Shown here piece after piece: positions 8,183-43,286 of a stretch of DNA of 64,000 nt (its first letter is position 1; each line of letters opens with the position of its first letter). This DNA comes from Ignavibacteriota bacterium (GTDB lineage Bacteria > Bacteroidota > Ignavibacteria > Palsa-1295). A program made the position numbers and the translations under genes. The notes beneath the pieces are model-generated. The model saw nothing but the letters and a program-made list of their open reading frames with translations. It ran no database searches and was not told the origin of the DNA. The stretch spans positions 64,001 through 128,000 of the forward strand of contig CAWBEI010000004.1 in assembly GCA_963787835.1 (NCBI GenBank), given 5' to 3'.

Positions 8183-9580
8183 TTACCTGCCGCCAGGACG
8201 GCCACCACCACCTGGCCGTGGCTGACTAAGCGGCGACGACGAAGAAGATGTTGGAGCTAAAGAAAATGCTGCGACAATGACGCTATCTCCCGCAATGAGT
8301 TGGGGATTGCTACGCAATACTTCCGCATAATTCGCATCCTGGAGTCCCGTTACCACATGTACGGGCTTGATCTCCGGGCCATTCGGCGAATTAGTCTTAA
8401 CATAGATCGTAGCGAATGACGGCGTGACAGAATCGCGAGGCAGTTCGCTCATAGTGCCAGCGTTATCCGACATATTGCGATGATGGTGCGTGGTATCGCC
8501 GCCAGCTCCCGAATGCTGCCCACGATGCGCTCGGGCAGAATCTCTCACGGCCTGTGGAAGCTGGGCGATAAGATCTGCCGGCGGAACGAAGCGTGTTGCG
8601 CTGACGGGAACACGAAGCACATTCGATCGGCTGGCATTGATAATGTTAACTGTTGCGGTCATGCCAGGTAGCAGCTTCCCTTGGGGGTTATCGGTCCTGA
8701 TGATCACATTGTAGGTAACTACATTAGTGGTTACGGTAGGATTGATCTGAACCTGCCACACTTTACCTTTGAATTTTTCTCCGGGATAACTTTCAACGGT
8801 AAATACCACTTCTTGTGAATCAGCAACCTGACCGATGTCTGCTTCATCCACATCAGCGGCCACCTGCATCTTCGTCAGATCCTGAGCGATCACGTAACAT
8901 ACCGTGACGTTTAGTCCCGCGGCAACGGTCTGCCCGCTATCGACATCGCGCGCCTGCACGACTCCATCGACTGGAGAGCGAATGAAGCAATACCCAAGAT
9001 TCACTTTTGCCTGCTGATATTGTGCGGAATCCACATCGAGTGTAGCTTTCGCATCTTTCAGTGCATTAATGGATGCGTCATAATCGGATTGGGCGACAAG
9101 GTGTTGCGCTAAAAGCTCCCGTTCTCGTGCCTCATTTTGGACGGCCAACAGTAGATCGGATCTGGCTTTGATTACTGTTGCGGCCGCTTGCGTAAGGGAG
9201 GCAACGTAAGGTGCGGTATCCAGCGCGGCAAGGAGCTGTCCCGCTTTTACTTTGGCATTGAAATCCACATAGATCTTTTTAACGAGCCCTGAAACCTGGC
9301 TGCCCACGGATACTGTGGTGGTAGCTTGCAACGTGCCGGTCGCGGTGACGCTGCGTGTAACGCTGCCGGTATCAATGGCTGCGTAGCGAATGATAAGGGG
9401 CGGTGGGGGTGGGGTGCGGATGAAGAAATACCAAAATCCGAAGCCGAGAGCCACCAGGCCGATTACCCAGAATACTGGACCAAGCTTTCGCTTTTTGCGG
9501 CCAAGCGTTACTTTCTTCAACGCTTCCTTCGGCGGAGCGGGTGGTGTTTGAGATGATGAAACAAGATTCGATTCTGCCAT
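8183..9580 (-). CDS. Efflux periplasmic adaptor subunit (MacA-like)
   Basis: N-terminal TM helix, VGSQVSG...V..GQLLA.LD, IRSPVDGVV and LLPGMTA. Confidence 0.92.
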   Translation of the reverse strand: MAESNLVSSSQTPPAPPKEALKKVTLGRKKRKLGPVFWVIGLVALGFGFWYFFIRTPPPPPLIIRYAAIDTGSVTRSVTATGTLQATTTVSVGSQVSGLVKKIYVDFNAKVKAGQLLAALDTAPYVASLTQAAATVIKARSDLLLAVQNEARERELLAQHLVAQSDYDASINALKDAKATLDVDSAQYQQAKVNLGYCFIRSPVDGVVQARDVDSGQTVAAGLNVTVCYVIAQDLTKMQVAADVDEADIGQVADSQEVVFTVESYPGEKFKGKVWQVQINPTVTTNVVTYNVIIRTDNPQGKLLPGMTATVNIINASRSNVLRVPVSATRFVPPADLIAQLPQAVRDSARAHRGQHSGAGGDTTHHHRNMSDNAGTMSELPRDSVTPSFATIYVKTNSPNGPEIKPVHVVTGLQDANYAEVLRSNPQLIAGDSVIVAAFSLAPTSSSSSPLSQPRPGGGGRPGGR

Positions 9581-21749: not shown

Positions 21750-22050
21750 ATTTCTTATCGAAATAGGTGCCATTTTTCTTTCTTGTGAGTTCCCGATATT
21801 TTATGGCTGACCCGCGAATTTGGGCTAATTTCGCCACTTGTTGCAACGAGTATTCATAAAAGTCCCTTCATACAGAACACGTTCATAACGAAAGCTACCG
21901 ACATGATTTTCAATGAGCCACTGAGCACCCATTCTTAATTATTACTTCTTACTTCGTAATTGATATAGGTGCCCATCAAAGTAAGTACTAATATACGCAC
22001 TAAAATTGGGGAAGTCAAGCGTTTCAAAAAGATTTGTCAAGATTTATTTT

Positions 22051-23135
22051 TCAAGAACTCTTCCATTGCCTTTCGGATGTTCGCCAAGGTTCGAGGCTGG
22101 AGCCCTGCTCGATAAGATTTGCAGCTTCAATTAAGCGTAACGAATGTAAGTCTTCATTTTCTATCGTGATACTTGTACCGTCTCTACGATTGACTCCAAA
22201 ACCATCCTCAATTGCTTTGGGCCTGTCGAGGCAACCAAAGAGCCATGCGAATTTCTCGGCCTCAGCGCCGAAGGCTTCCTGTACTCTTGGGCGGTAAACT
22301 TCAGATAAAGTTTCAATTGTGTACTTATTGGTGCCATAGATAGAATGAAGACCACCCCCAAGGCAAATGGACTCCTCACAACCCCACTGTTTAAGAAGGT
22401 CGTAGGTTCCGAGTAGGTGATCGATGAGATGGCGTCTGGAATGAACTTGATTATGAGCCCCAGCTTCTAATAGTGCTTGTTGCAATGATGATCTAGGTTT
22501 GTCTTCAACTACTTCGCCTTCTGCACGGGCTTTGAAAACGATAACAGTTCTGAGTTGAGGGCAGATACGAGAAACTGCACGGCCGACATGATACGAGTTT
22601 GAGGGAAATATTAGCAGACGCCCCCACTTTGGAAGAATCGCTCGAATGATCTCGCCAGATGGATTGAAAATGGTTGTCTCACCAGCCCAATTAGGATTCC
22701 AGCCCCTATTTATATAAATTATCGCCGTCATCTCATTAGGGTCATCAGAGTCCTGATGGATATAGCCATCATTGCCGTATGTATATGCATTGGAGTATGC
22801 GCGGATGGAACAGGATGATCCGGAAGAGCATGCGGTTGGAAGGATTCCCATAGCTTTAATACTGCTTCTGGTAGTTCGCTTCGAATGTCTTTGCGGTTAC
22901 GAGAATCCGCGCCAGTTTGAGAAAAGCCAAGATTCCAATGACTAAAAATTACTTGCTTATTCGATTTCCAACCGTAACGAAAGCCACTTTGACGGATGAC
23001 GCCAACAACTTCATCAATTAGGATCTCATTGATAAAATCATCGTAAACAGCAATTCCATTCTCGTCAGCCTTGATTGCAACTGAAGCATTCTCTGGTTGC
23101 CAATCGAGAGAAATTTCGTTAGTGTATTCGGGCAT
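22051..23135 (-). CDS. 2OG-Fe(II) oxygenase (prolyl-hydroxylase-like) fused to a DUF6817 HD-like domain; one-base frameshift near 22807
   Basis: Joining ORFs 22728-23135 and 22051-22851 gives GWKS..HWN...IRAYSNAYTYGNDGYIHQD (HxD)...WAGET...YHVGR...LRT, followed by HSRRHLIDHLLGTYDLL..WG...LHSIYGT. Confidence 0.82.
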
Positions 23136-24097
23136 TATTTTGTTAGCAAATGTTCCAATTCCTTACATTTTTGCTTTTTAGCCATGTCGAGTGGTGTTTG
23201 TCCGTCTCTTGTCTTAGCATTTCGATCCGCTCCATTTTGGAGTAAAATTCTGGCCATATCTAAATCGCAATATCTCGCCGCAAGCCAGAGGCCCCCCCCC
23301 CTATCGACTTCGAAGTTCGGCAAAGCTCCAGCATGAAGTAGGGTATTCATTATTTCGACATATCTTTCATGGCGTGATTTCTCTGTTGAATCACCAAACA
23401 TTCTAAGCTCTTCCAATTCCCCACCACGCTTAGATAGTTCATCTCCGTCTTTCCAAATTACCTCGCACAATATTGAGAAATTTGCTCTTCCAATAGAATT
23501 TGGATTGTCACCGTCTGTGAGAAGATTTGGATCAGCACCGTTCGAGAGAAGTAACGAGACCATCGCTGGGCTCCCAATATCTACAGCAATACAAAGTGGC
23601 GTCTGCTTGGCTATTGAGTCAGGAGTATTGGGATTAAGACCATGTTGTAGTAAAAATGCAGCTATTTCCAAATTGTTTCCTCGAACTGCTACATGAAGCA
23701 TTGTCTGCCCCTCATTATCTCTTTTTTGGATTGAAAAACCATGTTTATACAGAATAGCAAGCGATTGCCAGGAATTGTTAAAAGCTGCGATCTCCCCAAC
23801 AGATTCCATAGAGTTTCTGCCCGAGGTATCAAGAATATCGGCATGATGATCAAGAAGAAGATTAACCATTATCGTGTCGTCATGATCCACGGCAATCCAA
23901 AGCGGAGTGACACCGTTGTGATTGCGCTCATTAGGATCTGCTCCACTCGCTAAAAGCTCCTTTGCGCGTGGAAGATCATGTGTTCCGATAGCAAGTGCAA
24001 GGCTCGTGTCTTTATCGAGGTTTTGTTGCGAACGTGTGCAGCCGGACACAAAGGTTAAAAGGAATACAAGATACGCAAGTAATGTCAAACGAGACAT
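23135..24097 (-). CDS. Ankyrin-repeat lipoprotein
   Basis: Lipobox VSGC and multiple G.TPL..A...LL..GADPN repeats. Confidence 0.9.
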   Translation of the reverse strand: MSRLTLLAYLVFLLTFVSGCTRSQQNLDKDTSLALAIGTHDLPRAKELLASGADPNERNHNGVTPLWIAVDHDDTIMVNLLLDHHADILDTSGRNSMESVGEIAAFNNSWQSLAILYKHGFSIQKRDNEGQTMLHVAVRGNNLEIAAFLLQHGLNPNTPDSIAKQTPLCIAVDIGSPAMVSLLLSNGADPNLLTDGDNPNSIGRANFSILCEVIWKDGDELSKRGGELEELRMFGDSTEKSRHERYVEIMNTLLHAGALPNFEVDRGGGLWLAARYCDLDMARILLQNGADRNAKTRDGQTPLDMAKKQKCKELEHLLTK

Positions 24098-24132
24098 TGA
24101 ATAAGTTATAATGTTAGATAATAATGCAATAA

Positions 24133-25563
24133 TCAGTGTATTTTTAATGATTTAAGATAGTAAATCCACCCCTGTGCTTGACTTATTACATTTAGAACAT
24201 CAGCCACGCTGGGAGGCGGCAATAAAGTCCCATCATTCAACTCATCCTTAAGAGTTTTCATGTCATGTATAACAGTATTTAGCGAATTTATCCAAGCACT
24301 TATTTGTGCGTTATAATCTGATACTCCTTGAGGTGTGTTTGTATTGAAGTCATTCAGATCATTTTCAACTTCAGTATGTGTTAATAGTACAAGGATTGCA
24401 AGGATTGCATTAAATGCATCCATTAAAGTGTCATAAGTTGTATCTTGGGCACCAGCGAGTTTCGCAAAACTTGATAGAGTTTTGAATGCACCATTCATCA
24501 AATTCGTGGCTGCTTTGGCATTAGCAGCTTGAAGAAGTGCCAACTTCTGTTGCAAAGTTAGCAACCCTGGCGTACTGGTCGTGCCACTGCCTCCGCCTGT
24601 TGCAGTCCCAGGAAGTTGCGGAAGTTGAAAAGGTGTACCATCTATCGGAAAAATAGTTCTCCAATCTTTGTATGGGGTCTGATCTTGAGGACTTGGCGTC
24701 TGATCTTGATAACCTGCGTTTGGGCCGACAAGAATAGGAAGAGGATAGTCCCTAACAGGCAACGTTGGAGGTACGATATTTATATCTGTACCTTGATGGA
24801 GTGCACCAGTTGGGTCTAAATTGGGATCTCCTACTTGGCCTCCAATGCCACCGAAAGGATCACCACTTTGTCCTGTGATACCCCCCGATGGGTCCATGAA
24901 TTGACCTGTGATGCCTATCGGATCTCCACTTGATGGCGTAATAGTTCCGAATGGATCTCCCCATTGACCGGAAGTGAGGCCACTAAACGGATCGCCCCAC
25001 TGACCAGTGTTGATGCTGCTCAATGGATCGCTAAACTGGATTATCCCAATCGGATCCGTTCCAATGCTAGGACCTCCCCCAGCTGGATCCGCATTACCTC
25101 CTCCGGGATCGCCTCCTCCGGGGTCGCCTCCTACGGGGTCACCTCCTCCGGGGTCACCTCCTCCGGGGTCGCCTCCTCCGGGGCCACCTCCTCCGGGGCC
25201 ACCTCCTCCGGGGCCACCTCCTCCGGGGTTACCTCCTCCGGGGCCACCTCCTCCGGGGTTACCTCCTCCGGGGCCACCTCCTCCGGGGCCACCTCCTCCG
25301 GGGTTACCTCCTCCGGGGCCACCTCCTCCGGGGTTACCTCCTCCGGGGCCACCTCCTCCGGGGTTACCTCCTCCGGGGCCACCTCCTCCGGGGCCACCTC
25401 CTCCGGGGCCACCTCCTCCGGGGCCACCTCCTCCGGGGCCACCTCCTCCGGGGCCAATCAGTCCGCCTCTTACGTCACCGAAAAACCCATCACCCAACCC
25501 ATCGCCTACCCCATCAAAGCCGGGGAGCGTTCGACTATGTTGTAATTGTTTTGCGCTAGACAT
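24133..25563 (-). CDS. Gly/Pro-rich repeat protein: (PGGGX)24, GDPF-type repeats and a helical C-terminal domain
   Basis: 476-aa ORF co-oriented with its neighbours and preceded by a purine-rich GAAGGGA; no signal peptide. Confidence 0.75.
   Translation of the reverse strand: MSSAKQLQHSRTLPGFDGVGDGLGDGFFGDVRGGLIGPGGGGPGGGGPGGGGPGGGGPGGGGPGGGNPGGGGPGGGNPGGGGPGGGNPGGGGPGGGGPGGGNPGGGGPGGGNPGGGGPGGGGPGGGGPGGGDPGGGDPGGGDPVGGDPGGGDPGGGNADPAGGGPSIGTDPIGIIQFSDPLSSINTGQWGDPFSGLTSGQWGDPFGTITPSSGDPIGITGQFMDPSGGITGQSGDPFGGIGGQVGDPNLDPTGALHQGTDINIVPPTLPVRDYPLPILVGPNAGYQDQTPSPQDQTPYKDWRTIFPIDGTPFQLPQLPGTATGGGSGTTSTPGLLTLQQKLALLQAANAKAATNLMNGAFKTLSSFAKLAGAQDTTYDTLMDAFNAILAILVLLTHTEVENDLNDFNTNTPQGVSDYNAQISAWINSLNTVIHDMKTLKDELNDGTLLPPPSVADVLNVISQAQGWIYYLKSLKIH
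25093..25452. repeat. Tandem array of 24 x 15-bp units (NNNACCTCCTCCGGG)
   Basis: Counted directly. The variable codon encodes G, N or D on the minus strand. Confidence 0.95.
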
Positions 25564-25588
25564 GGTCAGTATCCCTTCACTGAATCAA

Positions 25589-26230
25589 TCACGGAAGCAC
25601 GATCCAATCCATTTCGAACATGCTATAATTACCGCTGCTATCAATTAAGCGCATAGCCATTGGGAAGCGGCCAGTTCGGAGCAAAGAAAGTGTCAACGCA
25701 CGTCCTGTGCCGCCATAGGATGATGCGCCGAAGGAGAAAACAGGCATTGTTCCCGTTCCGGCATTCTGGAAAATGCCGCTCGTGGTTGAATTGTCCCTGA
25801 AGCTGATCTCGACATCAGAGGATGATGTTGTCCCTCCGGTCCAATCTAAAAAGATGGTGTTAACAAATTGGGTTCCCGCTTTGAGGAAGATGATCTTCGA
25901 GACCGATAACGGCAGCAGCGCGTTCGGTACGGTCATCTGATGCAATCCGTTCCATGTCAACGCCTGCTCGATGGCATCGAAATCGTAACTATTGGTTGCT
26001 CCAACGGTGGCAACTAACGACGTGTTAACGATCATTGGTGGGTTCACCCACGTAGCGGCATGAAGAAAGGTACTGCTGCGCAGGAACACACCCGGTTGCG
26101 CAGCTCCTGCCGAATTTTGAAAAGTCGTGGAAGAAATGACCGCTCGTGGATCCATCGGCGTCATCACGACTAAATCGTTCCACGATTGCGGGCCTTGCGG
26201 CGTGTTATTTTTGGAATTATTACCGTTCAT
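25589..26230 (-). CDS. Hypothetical protein, probably beta-rich, no signal peptide
   Basis: 213-aa ORF, first gene of the island; family not recognised. Confidence 0.72.
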   Translation of the reverse strand: MNGNNSKNNTPQGPQSWNDLVVMTPMDPRAVISSTTFQNSAGAAQPGVFLRSSTFLHAATWVNPPMIVNTSLVATVGATNSYDFDAIEQALTWNGLHQMTVPNALLPLSVSKIIFLKAGTQFVNTIFLDWTGGTTSSSDVEISFRDNSTTSGIFQNAGTGTMPVFSFGASSYGGTGRALTLSLLRTGRFPMAMRLIDSSGNYSMFEMDWIVLP

Positions 26231-26376
26231 GGTTTTAAGACATTAAAAGTTCAAGAAAGTGACGAATTATCCTTCTTCAAACTAACGCCCCCCCCAGAGT
26301 TCCGATCTTAGTGTCGTAAGCATTAATATTTCTTTAACTAATCATTACGGCATTAGTTCTTAGCTTCTAAGGAAGC

Positions 26377-26453
26377 TTAATTCGGCATCAATCTCACCAG
26401 CAGCATTTCCATCAACAGTTCATCGCTGGCGTGTTTGCGGCGGGTGAGGGCTT
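26377..26453 (-). repeat. 77-bp direct repeat of the holA 3' end (26975-27051)
   Basis: Manual alignment gives 72/77 identical positions, including the stop codon. Confidence 0.95.
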
Positions 26454-26459
26454 TTTTTC

Positions 26460-26681
26460 TCAGGCCGCGCGTGCCATCGTGCCTACACCTTCGAGAGTAA
26501 TTCGCCCGAGTGTGCTCATGTCTCCGAATCGTTCGATCACATCCAGCACCTCGATGCCTGCAACCAGGCCGTCGGCGTCATAGTCAATAGCAATTCCTTC
26601 CGCGACGTGTTTTGTGGTAACCGTCGTTTCCTTAAAGATAATACTTAGGGCATCCACCGATGGATCGTATGCGATTCTCAT
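26460..26681 (-). CDS. DUF2283 family protein (putative antitoxin)
   Basis: MRIAYDPSVDALSI...IDYDADG.VAGIEVLD. Confidence 0.88.
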   Translation of the reverse strand: MRIAYDPSVDALSIIFKETTVTTKHVAEGIAIDYDADGLVAGIEVLDVIERFGDMSTLGRITLEGVGTMARAA

Positions 26682-26683
26682 AA

Positions 26684-26942
26684 TTAGAAATAATAAGTGT
26701 ACACGGTTACAACCGTAATAATGTCACCTTCTACAACAAAGATGGGCCGGACTTGTTTCGTTCCATAAAATGTGCCATTCCAGATTCTGTTGAACGGAAA
26801 ATCCTTGCGTACGTCGAGCCGGCTGCCACTCTGCATTCATAATGGCCTGTTCAACTTCTTCGGGCTCATAACCGCGAATGGGAAGGTAACTGCGCGCGTG
26901 ATCCGAGAGGATGATCTGTTCCCCGGCATAACTCTTATTCAT
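26684..26942 (-). pseudogene. DUF4258-like (RelE/BrnT-fold) putative toxin, frameshifted near 26810
   Basis: The N-terminus (LSDHA...RG...EEVEQAI) continues in another frame as RKDFPFNRIWNGTFYGTKQVRPIFVVEGDIITVVTVYTYYF*, which ends just before the DUF2283 start. Confidence 0.75.
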
Positions 26943-26974
26943 TCTATCCTTGATCTATCTTGATGATATTGCAC

Positions 26975-28036
26975 TTAACCCGGCATTAATCTCACCAGCA
27001 TCATTTCCATCAACAGTTCATCGCTGGCATGTTTGCGGCGGGTGAGGGCTTCGGTTTCGAGAATGGCGGCAATGGCGGCATCTAATCGGGCGCGTGAGTA
27101 TTTCCGTGCCTGCGCGATAATTTCTTTTGCAAAATAGGCTGCGCCGCCGCGAAGTTCCAGGGCATCGGCAATGGCGCGTTCGTTCTCGCCTTTTGCAGAA
27201 AGTTCTCGCGCAATAATAAGCTGTTCGATGAACCGCGAGAGCATGACGAACATAAATTGCTTTTGGTCGCTGCCCTGGTCGAGCATTTTCAGCGCAATAG
27301 TTACAGCCAGCGGCTTATTCGCTGCGCCGATCGCCTTGGTTAACTCGAACACATTATTCTCACGCGAGGCCCCAACCACTTGCTCTACATCTTTATCGGT
27401 CATATTTTTCCGTTCGGCGCCACAATAAATAATGAGCTTTTCCAGTTCGTTCGCAAGCCCACGAAGCGAAACACCAAGATAGTTCGTCATCAGCCTCGCA
27501 GCATCGGAGGAAAGCGATCGCCCGAGGGATTTCGCTCGCGCTGTTACCCAGGCAGAAGCCTCGCCCTCTTTCATCTCTGGAAATTCGATGACATAAGCTT
27601 TCTCCGCAAGTTCTTTAAATGGCGATTGATTGCGGGCTCCGAATTTATCGAGATCGAAGATCAAGATACAATCGGGATTAGGTTTTTCGAGATATTGAAG
27701 CAGGGGGTCTTCGCTCTGTCCGCCTTTTTTCTTACTTTTTGCAGCAACACCGGCAGGCTTCGCTCGTAGAATTCTTTCCGCCTCTCGGATGATAACAAGC
27801 CTGCGTTCGGCCATCATCGGGTAGGATCGGGCAAGTGCGATCACCTGATCCATGCTTGTTTCCGGCCCGTAAAGCACATCGCAATTGAAGGAGCGGATGG
27901 ATTCATCGGGCACGAAGATGTCCGGCGCGGCGTGCAAAAGCTCGCTGCGCAGGAAATCTTCCTCGCCGTGCAGCACCGTAACTGGTTTGGCGTTACCAGT
28001 TTTCCATTGTTTTAGGAGGTCATCCGAAGCAGCCAT
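26975..28036 (-). CDS. holA: DNA polymerase III subunit delta
   Basis: PVTVLHGEEDFL, FN.DVLYG, A.SYPMMAERRLVII, L.NELEKL and NVFEL. Confidence 0.93.
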   Translation of the reverse strand: MAASDDLLKQWKTGNAKPVTVLHGEEDFLRSELLHAAPDIFVPDESIRSFNCDVLYGPETSMDQVIALARSYPMMAERRLVIIREAERILRAKPAGVAAKSKKKGGQSEDPLLQYLEKPNPDCILIFDLDKFGARNQSPFKELAEKAYVIEFPEMKEGEASAWVTARAKSLGRSLSSDAARLMTNYLGVSLRGLANELEKLIIYCGAERKNMTDKDVEQVVGASRENNVFELTKAIGAANKPLAVTIALKMLDQGSDQKQFMFVMLSRFIEQLIIARELSAKGENERAIADALELRGGAAYFAKEIIAQARKYSRARLDAAIAAILETEALTRRKHASDELLMEMMLVRLMPG

Positions 28037-28352: not shown

Positions 28353-29159
28353 ATGCATTTTAGCACCGATCAACAAGACGATATTACGATCTTCCGTTTG
28401 CGAGAGGAACGGCTCGATTCCCGGAACGCCGGGCAACTCAAGGCCGAATTCCTTATCCTCGCACAGCCGGATATTCAAACGCTGATCGTCGATCTGAGCG
28501 AAGTCCGCCACGTCGATAGTGCCGGCCTTTCGGCGCTCTTGCTGGCGCAGCGCCAGATGGCCGTGCATGAAGGTGAACTTCGGCTTGCCGGCGTAACCGA
28601 GGAAGTGCTTTCACTGCTGAGAATGACACAATTAGACAGAGTTTTTCGTATTTTTAATACCGTGGAGGATGCCCGCGCGGCGGCTCCGAACTTCCGCGAC
28701 GCATGGGAACGTAAAGCGTGGGAAGAAGAGCATGGTCGCGAAGCACCCTCGACGGATCAGAATTTCAATGGCGGGATCGGCGCCGCGCTTTCACGAGGTT
28801 CGGAGGCGCCCGGCGCCCGGGCTCTGCGAGCAGGCGCTCTTGCCGCCGGTGGTTCCTTAGGAGCCGTAGCTTTAGAACATATTATTATGACAACACCTTT
28901 GGACGACGAATTAGAACTACCCACCTTCCTCGCCCTTGGCGACGAAGAGGATGATGACGACGATGATATCGACGATTTCGATGAGGATTTCGATGACGAT
29001 CTCGATGAAGAGGACGACATCGAAGAGGATGAGGAAGTCGCCGATAAAGATAAGCCAGAAGCCGAAGAAGAAGTGGTGCCCGATGATCTCGACGAGGATT
29101 TCGAAGACGATGATTGGGACGACGAAGAATTAGACGAAGACGAAGAAGACGATTATTAA
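28353..29159 (+). CDS. STAS-domain anti-sigma factor antagonist with a long Asp/Glu-rich C-terminal tail
   Basis: IVDLSEVRHVDSAGLSALL...L..TQLDRVF; the last ~75 aa are mostly D/E. Confidence 0.88.
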   Translation: MHFSTDQQDDITIFRLREERLDSRNAGQLKAEFLILAQPDIQTLIVDLSEVRHVDSAGLSALLLAQRQMAVHEGELRLAGVTEEVLSLLRMTQLDRVFRIFNTVEDARAAAPNFRDAWERKAWEEEHGREAPSTDQNFNGGIGAALSRGSEAPGARALRAGALAAGGSLGAVALEHIIMTTPLDDELELPTFLALGDEEDDDDDDIDDFDEDFDDDLDEEDDIEEDEEVADKDKPEAEEEVVPDDLDEDFEDDDWDDEELDEDEEDDY

Positions 29160-33721: not shown

Positions 33722-33807
33722 GAATAGAATTACGAATTACGAATTTCAAATTACGAATGAGGGCTCCTTGCCCCAATTCTTCATTCTTATTTCTTAATTC
33801 TAAATTG
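33722..33807. repeat. Inverted heptamer-repeat (GAATTAC/AATTCTT) STRR-like hairpin
   Basis: Tandem 7-mers on each side of a GC-rich core; similar to 43017-43090 and 43186-43279. Confidence 0.7.
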
Positions 33808-43016: not shown

Positions 43017-43090
43017 CAATTAAGAATTAAGAATTAAGAATTAAAAGTGACGAATTCAACTTTTAATTCTTAATTCTTAATTCTTAATTG
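43017..43090. repeat. Inverted heptamer-repeat hairpin (AAGAATT)n...(AATTCTT)n; second copy at 43186-43279
   Basis: Near-perfect long inverted repeats in both tRNA spacers. Confidence 0.88.
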
Positions 43091-43178: not shown

Positions 43179-43286
43179 CTTATTCAATTAATAATGAAGA
43201 ATTGAGAATTAAGAATTACGGAATCGGGTTTTGGGCCCTGAGTTCAATTCTTAATTCTTAACTATTAATTCTTAATTGAACCGCCG

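What the first reader, a model, noticed from the sequence alone, without database searches (positions are those of the whole stretch)
22051..26230. Candidate undescribed four-gene system: unknown protein, (PGGGX)24 protein, ankyrin lipoprotein and 2OG-Fe(II) hydroxylase-DUF6817
Seen: four co-oriented, tightly packed genes (gaps of 25 and 35 nt and a TAATG overlap) in visibly AT-richer DNA, lying between the convergent DUF4835 and holA genes. Known: HxD...H...R 2OG-Fe(II) enzymes of this type include prolyl hydroxylases, and GPGGX is the elastic motif of flagelliform silk. Inference: the oxygenase may hydroxylate Pro (or the variable Asn/Asp) in the neighbouring repeat protein. That would make a dedicated post-translational modification cassette, with the 213-aa protein as a structural or export partner and the ankyrin lipoprotein as a binding or immunity partner. 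I do not recognise this gene combination.
Basis: partly seen in the sequence, partly recalled or inferred. Interest (0 to 1): 0.78.

Follow-up and report, generated by a model that had tools for sequence, protein, structure and literature searches.

The report
Swappable toxin cassette with aspartate modifier
In a class of uncultured soil and water bacteria, one conserved unknown gene heads dozens of swappable gene pairs that likely encode an antibacterial protein and its antidote, and some copies, including this one, carry an enzyme predicted to chemically rewrite aspartates of that protein, a reaction we found described only for small peptides.

Summary
The four genes are real, but they are not a silk-like prolyl-hydroxylation cassette. 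The 213-aa gene (A) is a Pfam-less Ig-like family found in 57 of 401 Kapabacteria-class genomes, four copies here. It usually heads the same layout: A, a signal-less variable protein B, a signal-peptide partner C. B tips are swapped (SLT muramidase, HExxH, PLA2-like, propeller, helical) and C follows the tip, as in polymorphic toxin-immunity loci; no sheath or GPD/VgrG gene was found in this genome. The PGGGX array is a private expansion of B's disordered linker (23 units; at most 2 in 58 relatives). The oxygenase (D) is an optional fourth gene (8 of 48 scorable cassettes). Its DUF6817 half keeps all seven residues needed by SmaX, which with SmaO turns Asp in Asp-Gly motifs into hydroxy-Asp and aminomalonate (PMC12186529). 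D tracks an N-terminal DGxF motif in B (7/8 versus 1/40; motif chosen post hoc, only 4 independent pairs), not proline. Here D carries two one-base slips, one absent from a short-read contig. Toxicity, immunity, export and the substrate are inferred, not shown. The scan's earlier notes held nothing on this system.

The parts
25589..26230 (-). Gene A, 213 aa: conserved family of unknown function, no signal peptide, predicted Ig-like beta-sandwich with an N-terminal hairpin arm; always the head of the cassette
24133..25563 (-). Gene B, 476 aa: variable cargo, likely effector; no signal peptide, disordered Gly/Pro/Asp-rich N-terminal two thirds, helical C-terminal tip without homologues
25480..25515 (-). 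B residues 17-28, three Asp-Gly pairs ending in a DGxF motif: predicted substrate of D
   Evidence: SmaO specificity in PMC12186529
25096..25456 (-). 15-bp tandem array coding (PGGGX)24, a lineage-private expansion of B's linker
24136..24600 (-). B C-terminal tip, residues 322-476: predicted four-helix bundle (pLDDT 62, single sequence) with one moderately hydrophobic helix; weakly similar to tips of other D-bearing B proteins
23135..24097 (-). Gene C, 320 aa: ankyrin-repeat lipoprotein, likely cognate immunity or binding partner of the B tip
22037..23135 (-). Gene D: fused Fe(II)/2OG oxygenase and SmaX-like DUF6817 HD domain, broken in this assembly by one-base slips near 22809 and 22082 (pieces 22728-23135 and 22051-22851)
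26376..26453 (-). 78-bp copy (94%) of the holA 3' end, a scar of insertion at this site
26460..26942 (-). DUF2283 gene and an upstream 72-aa ORF without Pfam match (a small toxin-antitoxin-like pair, by recalled DUF2283 context) between the two holA ends; not part of the cassette in relatives
21760..22000 (.). Dispersed intergenic repeat, at least 59 further matches in the genome, no Rfam family; flanks the cassette

Best explanation
The locus is one copy of a class-wide swappable cassette in which conserved gene A precedes a variable signal-less protein B and a matching exported partner C, likely a bacteriocin-like toxin and its immunity protein, and the optional enzyme D is predicted to modify Asp-Gly motifs near B's N-terminus. 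Shown by sequence comparison: the A-B-C layout, the swapping of B tips together with C, D's position only behind C, and D's SmaX-type residues. Inferred: (1) A and B are made in the cytoplasm and A binds, stabilises or carries B on a route that uses no contractile injection system (release by lysis or vesicles are guesses); (2) B's disordered N-terminus threads the tip into a related cell's envelope, where SLT, peptidase, phospholipase-like or helical membrane-active tips act; (3) lipoprotein C, facing the periplasm, binds and neutralises the cognate tip; (4) before export D's 2OG domain makes beta-hydroxy-Asp at Asp-Gly sites and its HD domain cleaves this to aminomalonate, while one D clade with a dead HD domain stops at hydroxy-Asp. 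The PGGGX array only lengthens the linker. In this assembly D is frameshifted, so the window's B may currently be unmodified. Sub-odds: A-B-C is an antagonism cassette 0.6; D modifies Asp in B where intact 0.6.
For: A family: 38 proteins, 22 of 35 family genomes with up to 11 matches, 57 of 401 class genomes in 11 families, 3 of 300 other genomes of the phylum, all same class. Layout: B starts close behind A in most of 59 cassettes and none has an N-terminal hydrophobic stretch above 1.4; 51 of 54 automatically picked C ORFs have one (a few picks were wrong ORFs). Tip swapping: L028 shares residues 1-266 with L032 (40% over 276 aa) but its SLT tip with L010 (42% over 132 aa); L049 shares only the tip with L009 (43% over 104 aa). 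C clusters mirror tip clusters: {L009,L032,L049,L051}, {L011,L013,L027}, {L010,L028}, propellers. Near-identical A genes carry unrelated B: L008/L015, L006/L007, L064/L065/L067. Tips: Pfam SLT over cut-off in L010 and L028; invariant HExxH plus Glu in 7; invariant CCxxHD in 14, like Tox-PLA2 CxxHxxxY; ankyrins are known immunity proteins. D: all 10 family loci with E<1e-30 lie directly behind a C-type gene; these D form one clade, support 100. SmaX H31/H39/H63/T68/R104/N143/Q147 match window H137/H145/H169/T174/R210/N245/Q249, offsets +8,+32,+37,+73 exact; SmaO-SmaX fusions are known. DGxF in B's first 100 aa: 7 of 8 with D, 1 of 40 without; Asp content median 10.3% versus 4.2%. L005 and L050 share tip (z 11.6) and ankyrin C, but only L050 has the DGDF N-terminus and D.
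Against: No toxicity, binding, export or modification was measured. The window's own tip has no homologue and only generic helical-bundle matches (best Z 13.2 to syntaxin, within the range expected for helical bundles). 38 of 41 B proteins had no Pfam family over cut-off; the PLA2-like profile found nothing in PDB and the HExxH profile only E 0.21. In about a fifth of cassettes B is a propeller and C a T9SS-tailed propeller, which fits surface display better than periplasmic immunity. B N-termini are not conserved across the family; an ILP motif is enriched (17 of 59, shuffles 3.1) but absent from most, including the window. Some class-level loci lack B (L119, one copy in L124). The DGxF motif was chosen after seeing the D loci; only 4 independent pairs exist (same direction 3.2, opposite 0, sign test p 0.25); L035 has D without it, L013 and L122 have it without D. 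D survives behind orphan C genes without B (L083, L088), so it may travel with C. D is broken in 5 of the 10 strong family loci. A plasmid 2OG-DUF6817 pair in Polaromonas sits beside a Pro-rich ORF, and neither plasmid locus has a DG-rich neighbour. SmaO itself could not be aligned.
Confidence: 0.45

Rival explanations
1. A-B-C is the antagonism cassette, but D is a passenger: it travels with C, acts on C, a host protein or a small molecule, or is decaying, and in this strain it is a recent pseudogene.
For: D remains behind C where A and B are lost or ruined (L082, L083, L088), C-D is duplicated as a unit in L048, and D is broken in 5 of 10 strong family loci. Two slips in 1.1 kb contrast with 0 indels in 115 short contigs laid on a 19.9-kb control stretch. 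The D-motif link has only 4 independent pairs.
Against: C leaves the cytoplasm and is of two unrelated families in D loci (ankyrin and another lipoprotein), while B N-termini share DG motifs; L005 versus L050 separates D from C and tip. A contig of run X2 lacks the second slip. The dead-HD clade keeps an intact 2OG site.
Confidence: 0.27
2. The cassette builds a variable, non-toxic extracellular or surface structure: A is a self-assembling Ig-like subunit, B a variable tip or enzyme, C an anchor or receptor, and D adds metal-binding hydroxy-Asp or aminomalonate.
For: A is Ig-like, occurs in tandem pairs and tolerates a large insertion (L043, L061, L072, L073); conserved residues 147-157 are disordered in the monomer model. 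Propeller B with T9SS-tailed C and outer-membrane-like C proteins fit the cell surface.
Against: A and B have no export signal; muramidase, peptidase-like and phospholipase-like tips with strictly cognate downstream partners are the signature of toxin-immunity loci.
Confidence: 0.2
3. One reading: D is a prolyl hydroxylase dedicated to the silk-like (PGGGX)24 array of a structural protein.
For: D's 2OG domain is in the Pfam families that include PHD-type enzymes and has weak PDB hits to EGLN1 (E 0.34-0.9); a plasmid 2OG-DUF6817 pair lies beside a Pro-rich ORF.
Against: No other of 58 B proteins has more than 2 PGGG units; L019 and L035 B have 1 and 3 Pro in 120 residues; PGG goes against D in independent pairs (0.4 same, 2.2 opposite); the fused HD domain needs an alpha-hydroxy acid such as hydroxy-Asp.
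Confidence: 0.05

Closest known systems
Polymorphic toxin systems (Zhang et al. 2012, PMC3482391; Jamet and Nassif 2015, PMC4436062; passages read)
   Same: Variable C-terminal domains exchanged between N-termini, a cognate partner gene directly downstream, an upstream conserved gene, ankyrin partners, PLA2-like, peptidase-like and muramidase tips.
   Different: The conserved element is a separate gene of a new family, not the toxin's N-terminus; B has no signal peptide or known trafficking domain; no sheath or GPD gene in this genome; an RiPP-type tailoring enzyme rides along in a subset.
SmaO-SmaX Asp to hydroxy-Asp to aminomalonate cascade (Kim et al. 2025, PMC12186529; abstract, results, and parts of both supplements read)
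   Same: Fe(II)/2OG oxygenase plus DUF6817 HD domain, here fused as in some listed clusters; seven SmaX residues kept; Gly-rich neighbour with Asp-Gly motifs.
   Different: The neighbour is a 300-560-aa protein, not a short double-glycine precursor; no PCAT, HlyD or class-defining RiPP enzyme nearby; one clade has lost the HD residues; direct homology to SmaO not tested.
Colicins and S-type pyocins (PMC4436062 passage; the disordered Gly-rich translocation N-terminus is recalled)
   Same: No signal peptide, disordered Gly-rich N-terminus, C-terminal active domain, immunity gene downstream.
   Different: No recognisable receptor-binding domain or lysis gene; a conserved partner gene upstream; partner C is a lipoprotein or secreted protein.
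Microcins with siderophore modification, such as MccE492 (recalled, no call)
   Same: A post-translational metal-chelating decoration on an antibacterial polypeptide, if D's product aids uptake.
   Different: Those are small peptides carrying a C-terminal catechol; here a large protein with side-chain Asp oxidation near the N-terminus; uptake role is speculation.
PHD/EGLN-type prolyl hydroxylases and flagelliform silk GPGGX
   Same: HxD...H...R oxygenase fold; GPGGG units.
   Different: Only non-significant similarity to EGLN1; repeat is private to this genome; fused HD domain implies other chemistry.

Membership tests
Polymorphic toxin system | One N-terminal region joined to different C-terminal domains, and one C-terminal domain joined to different N-termini | tested here: met
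   (L028/L032/L010; L009/L049)
Polymorphic toxin system | Cognate partner gene directly downstream that co-varies with the tip | tested here: met
   position and co-variation only
Polymorphic toxin system | C-terminal domain is toxic | tested here: inconclusive
   SLT in 2 of 41; HExxH and CCxxHD motifs only; window tip unmatched
Polymorphic toxin system | Partner protects against the toxin | not testable with these tools
Polymorphic toxin system | Conserved N-terminal trafficking region that defines the family | tested here: not met
   B N-termini fall in several unrelated types; the conserved part is gene A
T6SS or eCIS effector locus | Contractile sheath and VgrG/GPD genes in the genome | tested here: not met
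   PF04984 0 in own genome, 4 of 35 in family, control rang in 3 of 14; PF05954 0 in own, control rang in 2; genome 97.9% complete
T6SS or eCIS effector locus | Bacteroidota-type TssC (PF17541) | tested here: inconclusive
   no match, but no control genome rang either
SmaO-SmaX cascade | Fe(II)/2OG oxygenase next to or fused with DUF6817 | tested here: met
SmaO-SmaX cascade | Seven SmaX residues H31, H39, H63, T68, R104, N143, Q147 | tested here: met
   window, L019, L035 match by spacing; lost in the clade P0044-P0052; matched by spacing, not by alignment to SmaX
SmaO-SmaX cascade | Asp-Gly motif in a Gly-rich neighbour | tested here: met
   B Asp17, 21, 25; DG in first 100 aa of 8 of 8 D-bearing B, but also 16 of 40 others
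SmaO-SmaX cascade | Short RiPP precursor with double-glycine leader and PCAT, or a class-defining RiPP or NRPS enzyme | tested here: not met
   none in the locus; the only C39 match in the genome is a stand-alone gene on another contig
SmaO-SmaX cascade | Sequence homology of the 2OG domain to SmaO | not tested
   only accession numbers were in the supplement; best NCBIfam match FlmC family, 84 bits against cut-off 240
SmaO-SmaX cascade | Measured Asp to Hya to Ama activity | not testable with these tools
   bench assay
PHD-type prolyl 4-hydroxylase cassette | Significant similarity to known prolyl hydroxylases | tested here: inconclusive
   EGLN1 hits E 0.34-0.9; shared Pfam families
PHD-type prolyl 4-hydroxylase cassette | Pro-rich repeat substrate conserved beside the enzyme | tested here: not met
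Colicin-like bacteriocin | Signal-less protein with disordered N-terminus, C-terminal domain and downstream immunity gene | tested here: met
   architecture only
Colicin-like bacteriocin | Receptor-binding domain and dedicated lysis or release gene | tested here: inconclusive
   no Pfam match in B, no such gene recognised in the locus; A could fill either role

The most novel reading that the evidence does not exclude
A defines an undescribed protein-delivery route of Kapabacteria: a self-assembling or cargo-capping Ig-like carrier that exports signal-less polymorphic effectors without T6SS, eCIS or a signal peptide, and in one lineage the effectors are matured by an RiPP-type enzyme that installs hydroxy-Asp or aminomalonate as a metal-binding entry tag, making them post-translationally armed protein toxins.
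Probability: 0.2. Interest if true: 0.9.

Novelty: new variant of a known kind. Interest (0 to 1): 0.68.

Why it matters
If right, it adds a polymorphic conflict system with a new conserved component and no known export route, spread over 11 families of a class with almost no cultured members, and supplies dozens of new candidate toxin-immunity pairs, most without Pfam matches. It would also give the aminomalonate-forming SmaO-SmaX chemistry a large-protein substrate; aminomalonate is reported in protein hydrolysates with little known about its origin (PMC12186529). Intact D-B pairs (L019, L035) and hydroxylase-only pairs (L033, L050) make this directly testable in E. coli.

Tried and rejected
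Fold searches of A (Foldseek PDB, VIA wide, BFVD) gave only generic Ig-like matches (best Z 5.1); PHROGs matched none of 89 A sequences convincingly; the ESM Atlas gave no usable hit for A or the B tip. None of this shows a new fold. No RNA holder was listed, so co-transcription is untested; the sigma-70 scan gave chance-level promoters and no terminator. Short-read contigs did not cover the slip near 22809 (a piece stops at 22795). D in viral contigs: none; phage records matched single domains only. Two plasmid 2OG-DUF6817 loci gave no DG-rich neighbour. Paper searches: DUF6817 gave one paper; polymorphic toxin/Kapabacteria/immunity, Kapabacteria/toxin/secretion/Palsa-1295, aminomalonic acid/hydroxyaspartate/HD domain/protein toxin and two FlmC searches showed no description of this cassette or of FlmC; subscription journals are mostly missing. 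Earlier scan notes: nothing by sequence or words. Rows dropped before counts: duplicate or short loci were left out of the 59 cassettes, and 11 of 59 were unscorable for D because the contig ended or B was broken; L018 has a very Asp-Gly-rich B but is among them. Rejected: flagelliform-silk analogue, prolyl hydroxylation, T6SS/eCIS effector pair, classical RiPP cluster.


Full report
Observation. The four minus-strand genes, their gaps (25 nt, 35 nt, TAATG) and the 15-bp array (24.1 copies) are as described. A and B have no Pfam family, C is an ankyrin-repeat protein with a lipobox, D carries 2OG-FeII_Oxy_3/4 and DUF6817. D lies in two frames. Orthologues read LPxHPVLIRAYSN across the first slip, and a 231-nt contig of run X2 has one extra base at 22082, which gives the C-terminus seen in orthologues. 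The first slip is not covered by any contig. In a 19.9-kb control stretch 115 contigs showed 4 substitutions and no indel, so the assembly is generally accurate and D may be a recent pseudogene; this is not settled. The block is 45.5% GC without the repeat against 50.1% for the genome. It is an insertion: holA and DUF4835 are adjacent in G028, and a 78-bp copy of the holA 3' end flanks a small DUF2283 module upstream of A.

Gene A defines a family. It has 38 relatives in the large protein set, four copies in this genome, matches in 22 of 35 genomes of the family and 57 of 401 genomes of the class, in 11 families; in a phylum-wide sample only 3 of 300 other genomes matched, all of the same class. 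Record titles of related loci name Candidatus Kapaibacterium and palsa_1295; a few are titled Alphaproteobacteria or Sediminibacterium, and L021 equals a locus of family member G011, so such titles are unreliable. The AlphaFold model (pLDDT 82) is an Ig-like beta-sandwich with an N-terminal hairpin and a conserved but disordered loop at 147-157; no specific structural relative was found.

The recurring unit is A-B-C. I examined 59 non-redundant cassettes, mostly from the family, and 16 further class-level regions. B follows A closely, starts with a low-complexity Gly/Pro/Asp-rich region and has no signal peptide. C follows B and has an N-terminal hydrophobic stretch in 51 of 54 automatic picks. 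B tips fall into classes: SLT transglycosylase (2, Pfam over cut-off), HExxH plus Glu (7), Cys-rich CCxxHD resembling the Tox-PLA2 signature (14), beta-propeller (9), kelch/glyoxal-oxidase-like (L060) and several helical types. Tips are exchanged between N-termini, C clusters mirror tip clusters, and almost identical A genes carry unrelated B proteins, even within one genome. G191 has three tandem A-B-C units with different B and C. This is the signature of polymorphic toxin loci as defined in PMC4436062, except that the conserved part is a separate gene. No sheath or GPD gene was found in this 97.9% complete genome; the TssC search was uninformative. Against a pure toxin reading: propeller B proteins pair with T9SS-tailed propeller C proteins, most tips have no known match, and a few loci lack B.

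The window's B. The PGGGX array is private: 23 units here, at most 2 in any other B. It sits where relatives have other low-complexity linkers, such as GDDTT repeats in L019. The tip (322-476) is predicted as a four-helix bundle at modest confidence, has no homologue in the large set and generic fold matches. Among the other tips its three best scores are L033, L035 and L019 (z 4.1-5.4), all D-bearing, and an alignment shows a weak shared pattern. Ankyrin C proteins also follow helical tips in L005, L021 and L050; ankyrins are listed as immunity proteins in PMC3482391.

Gene D. It is present in 8 of 48 scorable cassettes and none of the 16 class-level regions. All 10 family loci with E<1e-30 lie right behind a C-type gene, some with A and B ruined or absent; three more protein pairs share contig lengths with A homologues (inference only). 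These D proteins form one clade within a wide family of 2OG-DUF6817 fusions. The only paper in the library that names DUF6817 is PMC12186529: SmaO hydroxylates Asp in a DGDG motif, needs the following Gly and ignores Asn; SmaX (DUF6817) cleaves hydroxy-Asp to aminomalonate using H31, H39, H63, T68, R104, N143 and Q147; fusions occur. The window's D has H137, H145, H169, T174, R210, N245 and Q249, the first five at exactly SmaX's spacing; so do L019 and L035. A nine-member clade has lost these residues but keeps the 2OG site, which would leave a plain Asp hydroxylase. B proteins with D are richer in Asp, not Pro, and 7 of 8 have DGxF in the first 100 residues against 1 of 40. The window's B has Asp-Gly at 17, 21 and 25, while the repeat's Asp and Asn are followed by Pro. 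L005 and L050 share tip and ankyrin partner, yet only L050 has the DGDF N-terminus and D. Limits: the motif is post hoc, D needs 5 changes on the careful A tree, and only 4 independent pairs exist (p 0.25); exceptions are L035, L013 and L122; plasmid 2OG-DUF6817 pairs show no DG-rich neighbour and one has a Pro-rich one; similarity to EGLN1 is weak but present.

Mechanism. Most likely A escorts B out of the cell by a non-injection route, B's disordered N-terminus delivers an envelope-active tip to related cells, C neutralises the cognate tip, and D, where intact, oxidises N-terminal Asp-Gly sites of B. Hydroxy-Asp is a known iron ligand in siderophores and aminomalonate is a dicarboxylate (established knowledge, no call), so a metal-binding or uptake role is conceivable but speculative. 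Layout, swapping, co-variation and catalytic residues are shown; binding, export, toxicity, immunity and substrate are inferred.

Verdict. New variant of a known kind; interest 0.68.

Noticed in passing
window 21760-22000: Dispersed intergenic repeat with at least 59 further matches at 67-94% identity across contigs C2-C5 (list cut at 60 lines); no Rfam family.
   Followed up: partly
window 26376-26453 and 26974-27051; G029:C39 near 9198-9320: The holA 3' end is duplicated around a DUF2283 module here, and holA is separated from DUF4835 by a different T9SS-tailed gene in G029: an insertion hot spot.
   Followed up: partly
L089 4899-14423 (G191): Three tandem A-B-C units with near-identical A and the first 20 residues of B shared, but different Cys-rich B bodies and T9SS-tailed C propellers.
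   Followed up: partly
L072 2637-3704, L071 8025-9095, L079 2780-3457: A variants of about 355 aa with a roughly 145-residue insertion after the N-terminal hairpin, beside a normal A; in L072 no B follows. Tandem A pairs also in L043, L061, L073, L117.
   Followed up: no
L006 7641-7961, L007 8329-8691, L020 5006-5380, L036 6283-6930, L063 7298-7642, L072 1176-1784: A stand-alone LuxR-type HTH or sigma-70 region 4 gene often lies just upstream of A; absent in the window.
   Followed up: partly
L007, L015, L017, L022, L036, L052, L055, L057, L064, L065, L067 (B N-terminal part): A short Cys motif of the form HPCxxGGxCxCGGxC recurs in the linkers of unrelated B classes; many A proteins also begin with Cys-rich stretches. 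Possibly metal binding.
   Followed up: no
L048 4341-7016: C-D duplicated as C, truncated D, second C, full D, like an orphan immunity module.
   Followed up: partly
L083 3718-5526; L088 1262-2973; L082 3744-5755: Decayed cassettes in which C stays intact while A, B and D are lost or broken.
   Followed up: partly
L096 7553-8059 (Polaromonas plasmid CP087967.1): Unannotated ORF with VAPPP-rich, extensin-like repeats just downstream of a split 2OG plus DUF6817 pair.
   Followed up: no
G029:C39 11559-14643 (L113): A second, broken, inverted copy of DUF4835 and a holA fragment near the intact genes.
   Followed up: no
window 33727-33758, 43018-43089, 43246-43277: Short 7-bp tandem arrays, some as inverted pairs.
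   Followed up: no
window 28353-29159: Anti-sigma-antagonist-like (STAS, recalled) protein with a long Asp/Glu-rich tail.
   Followed up: no
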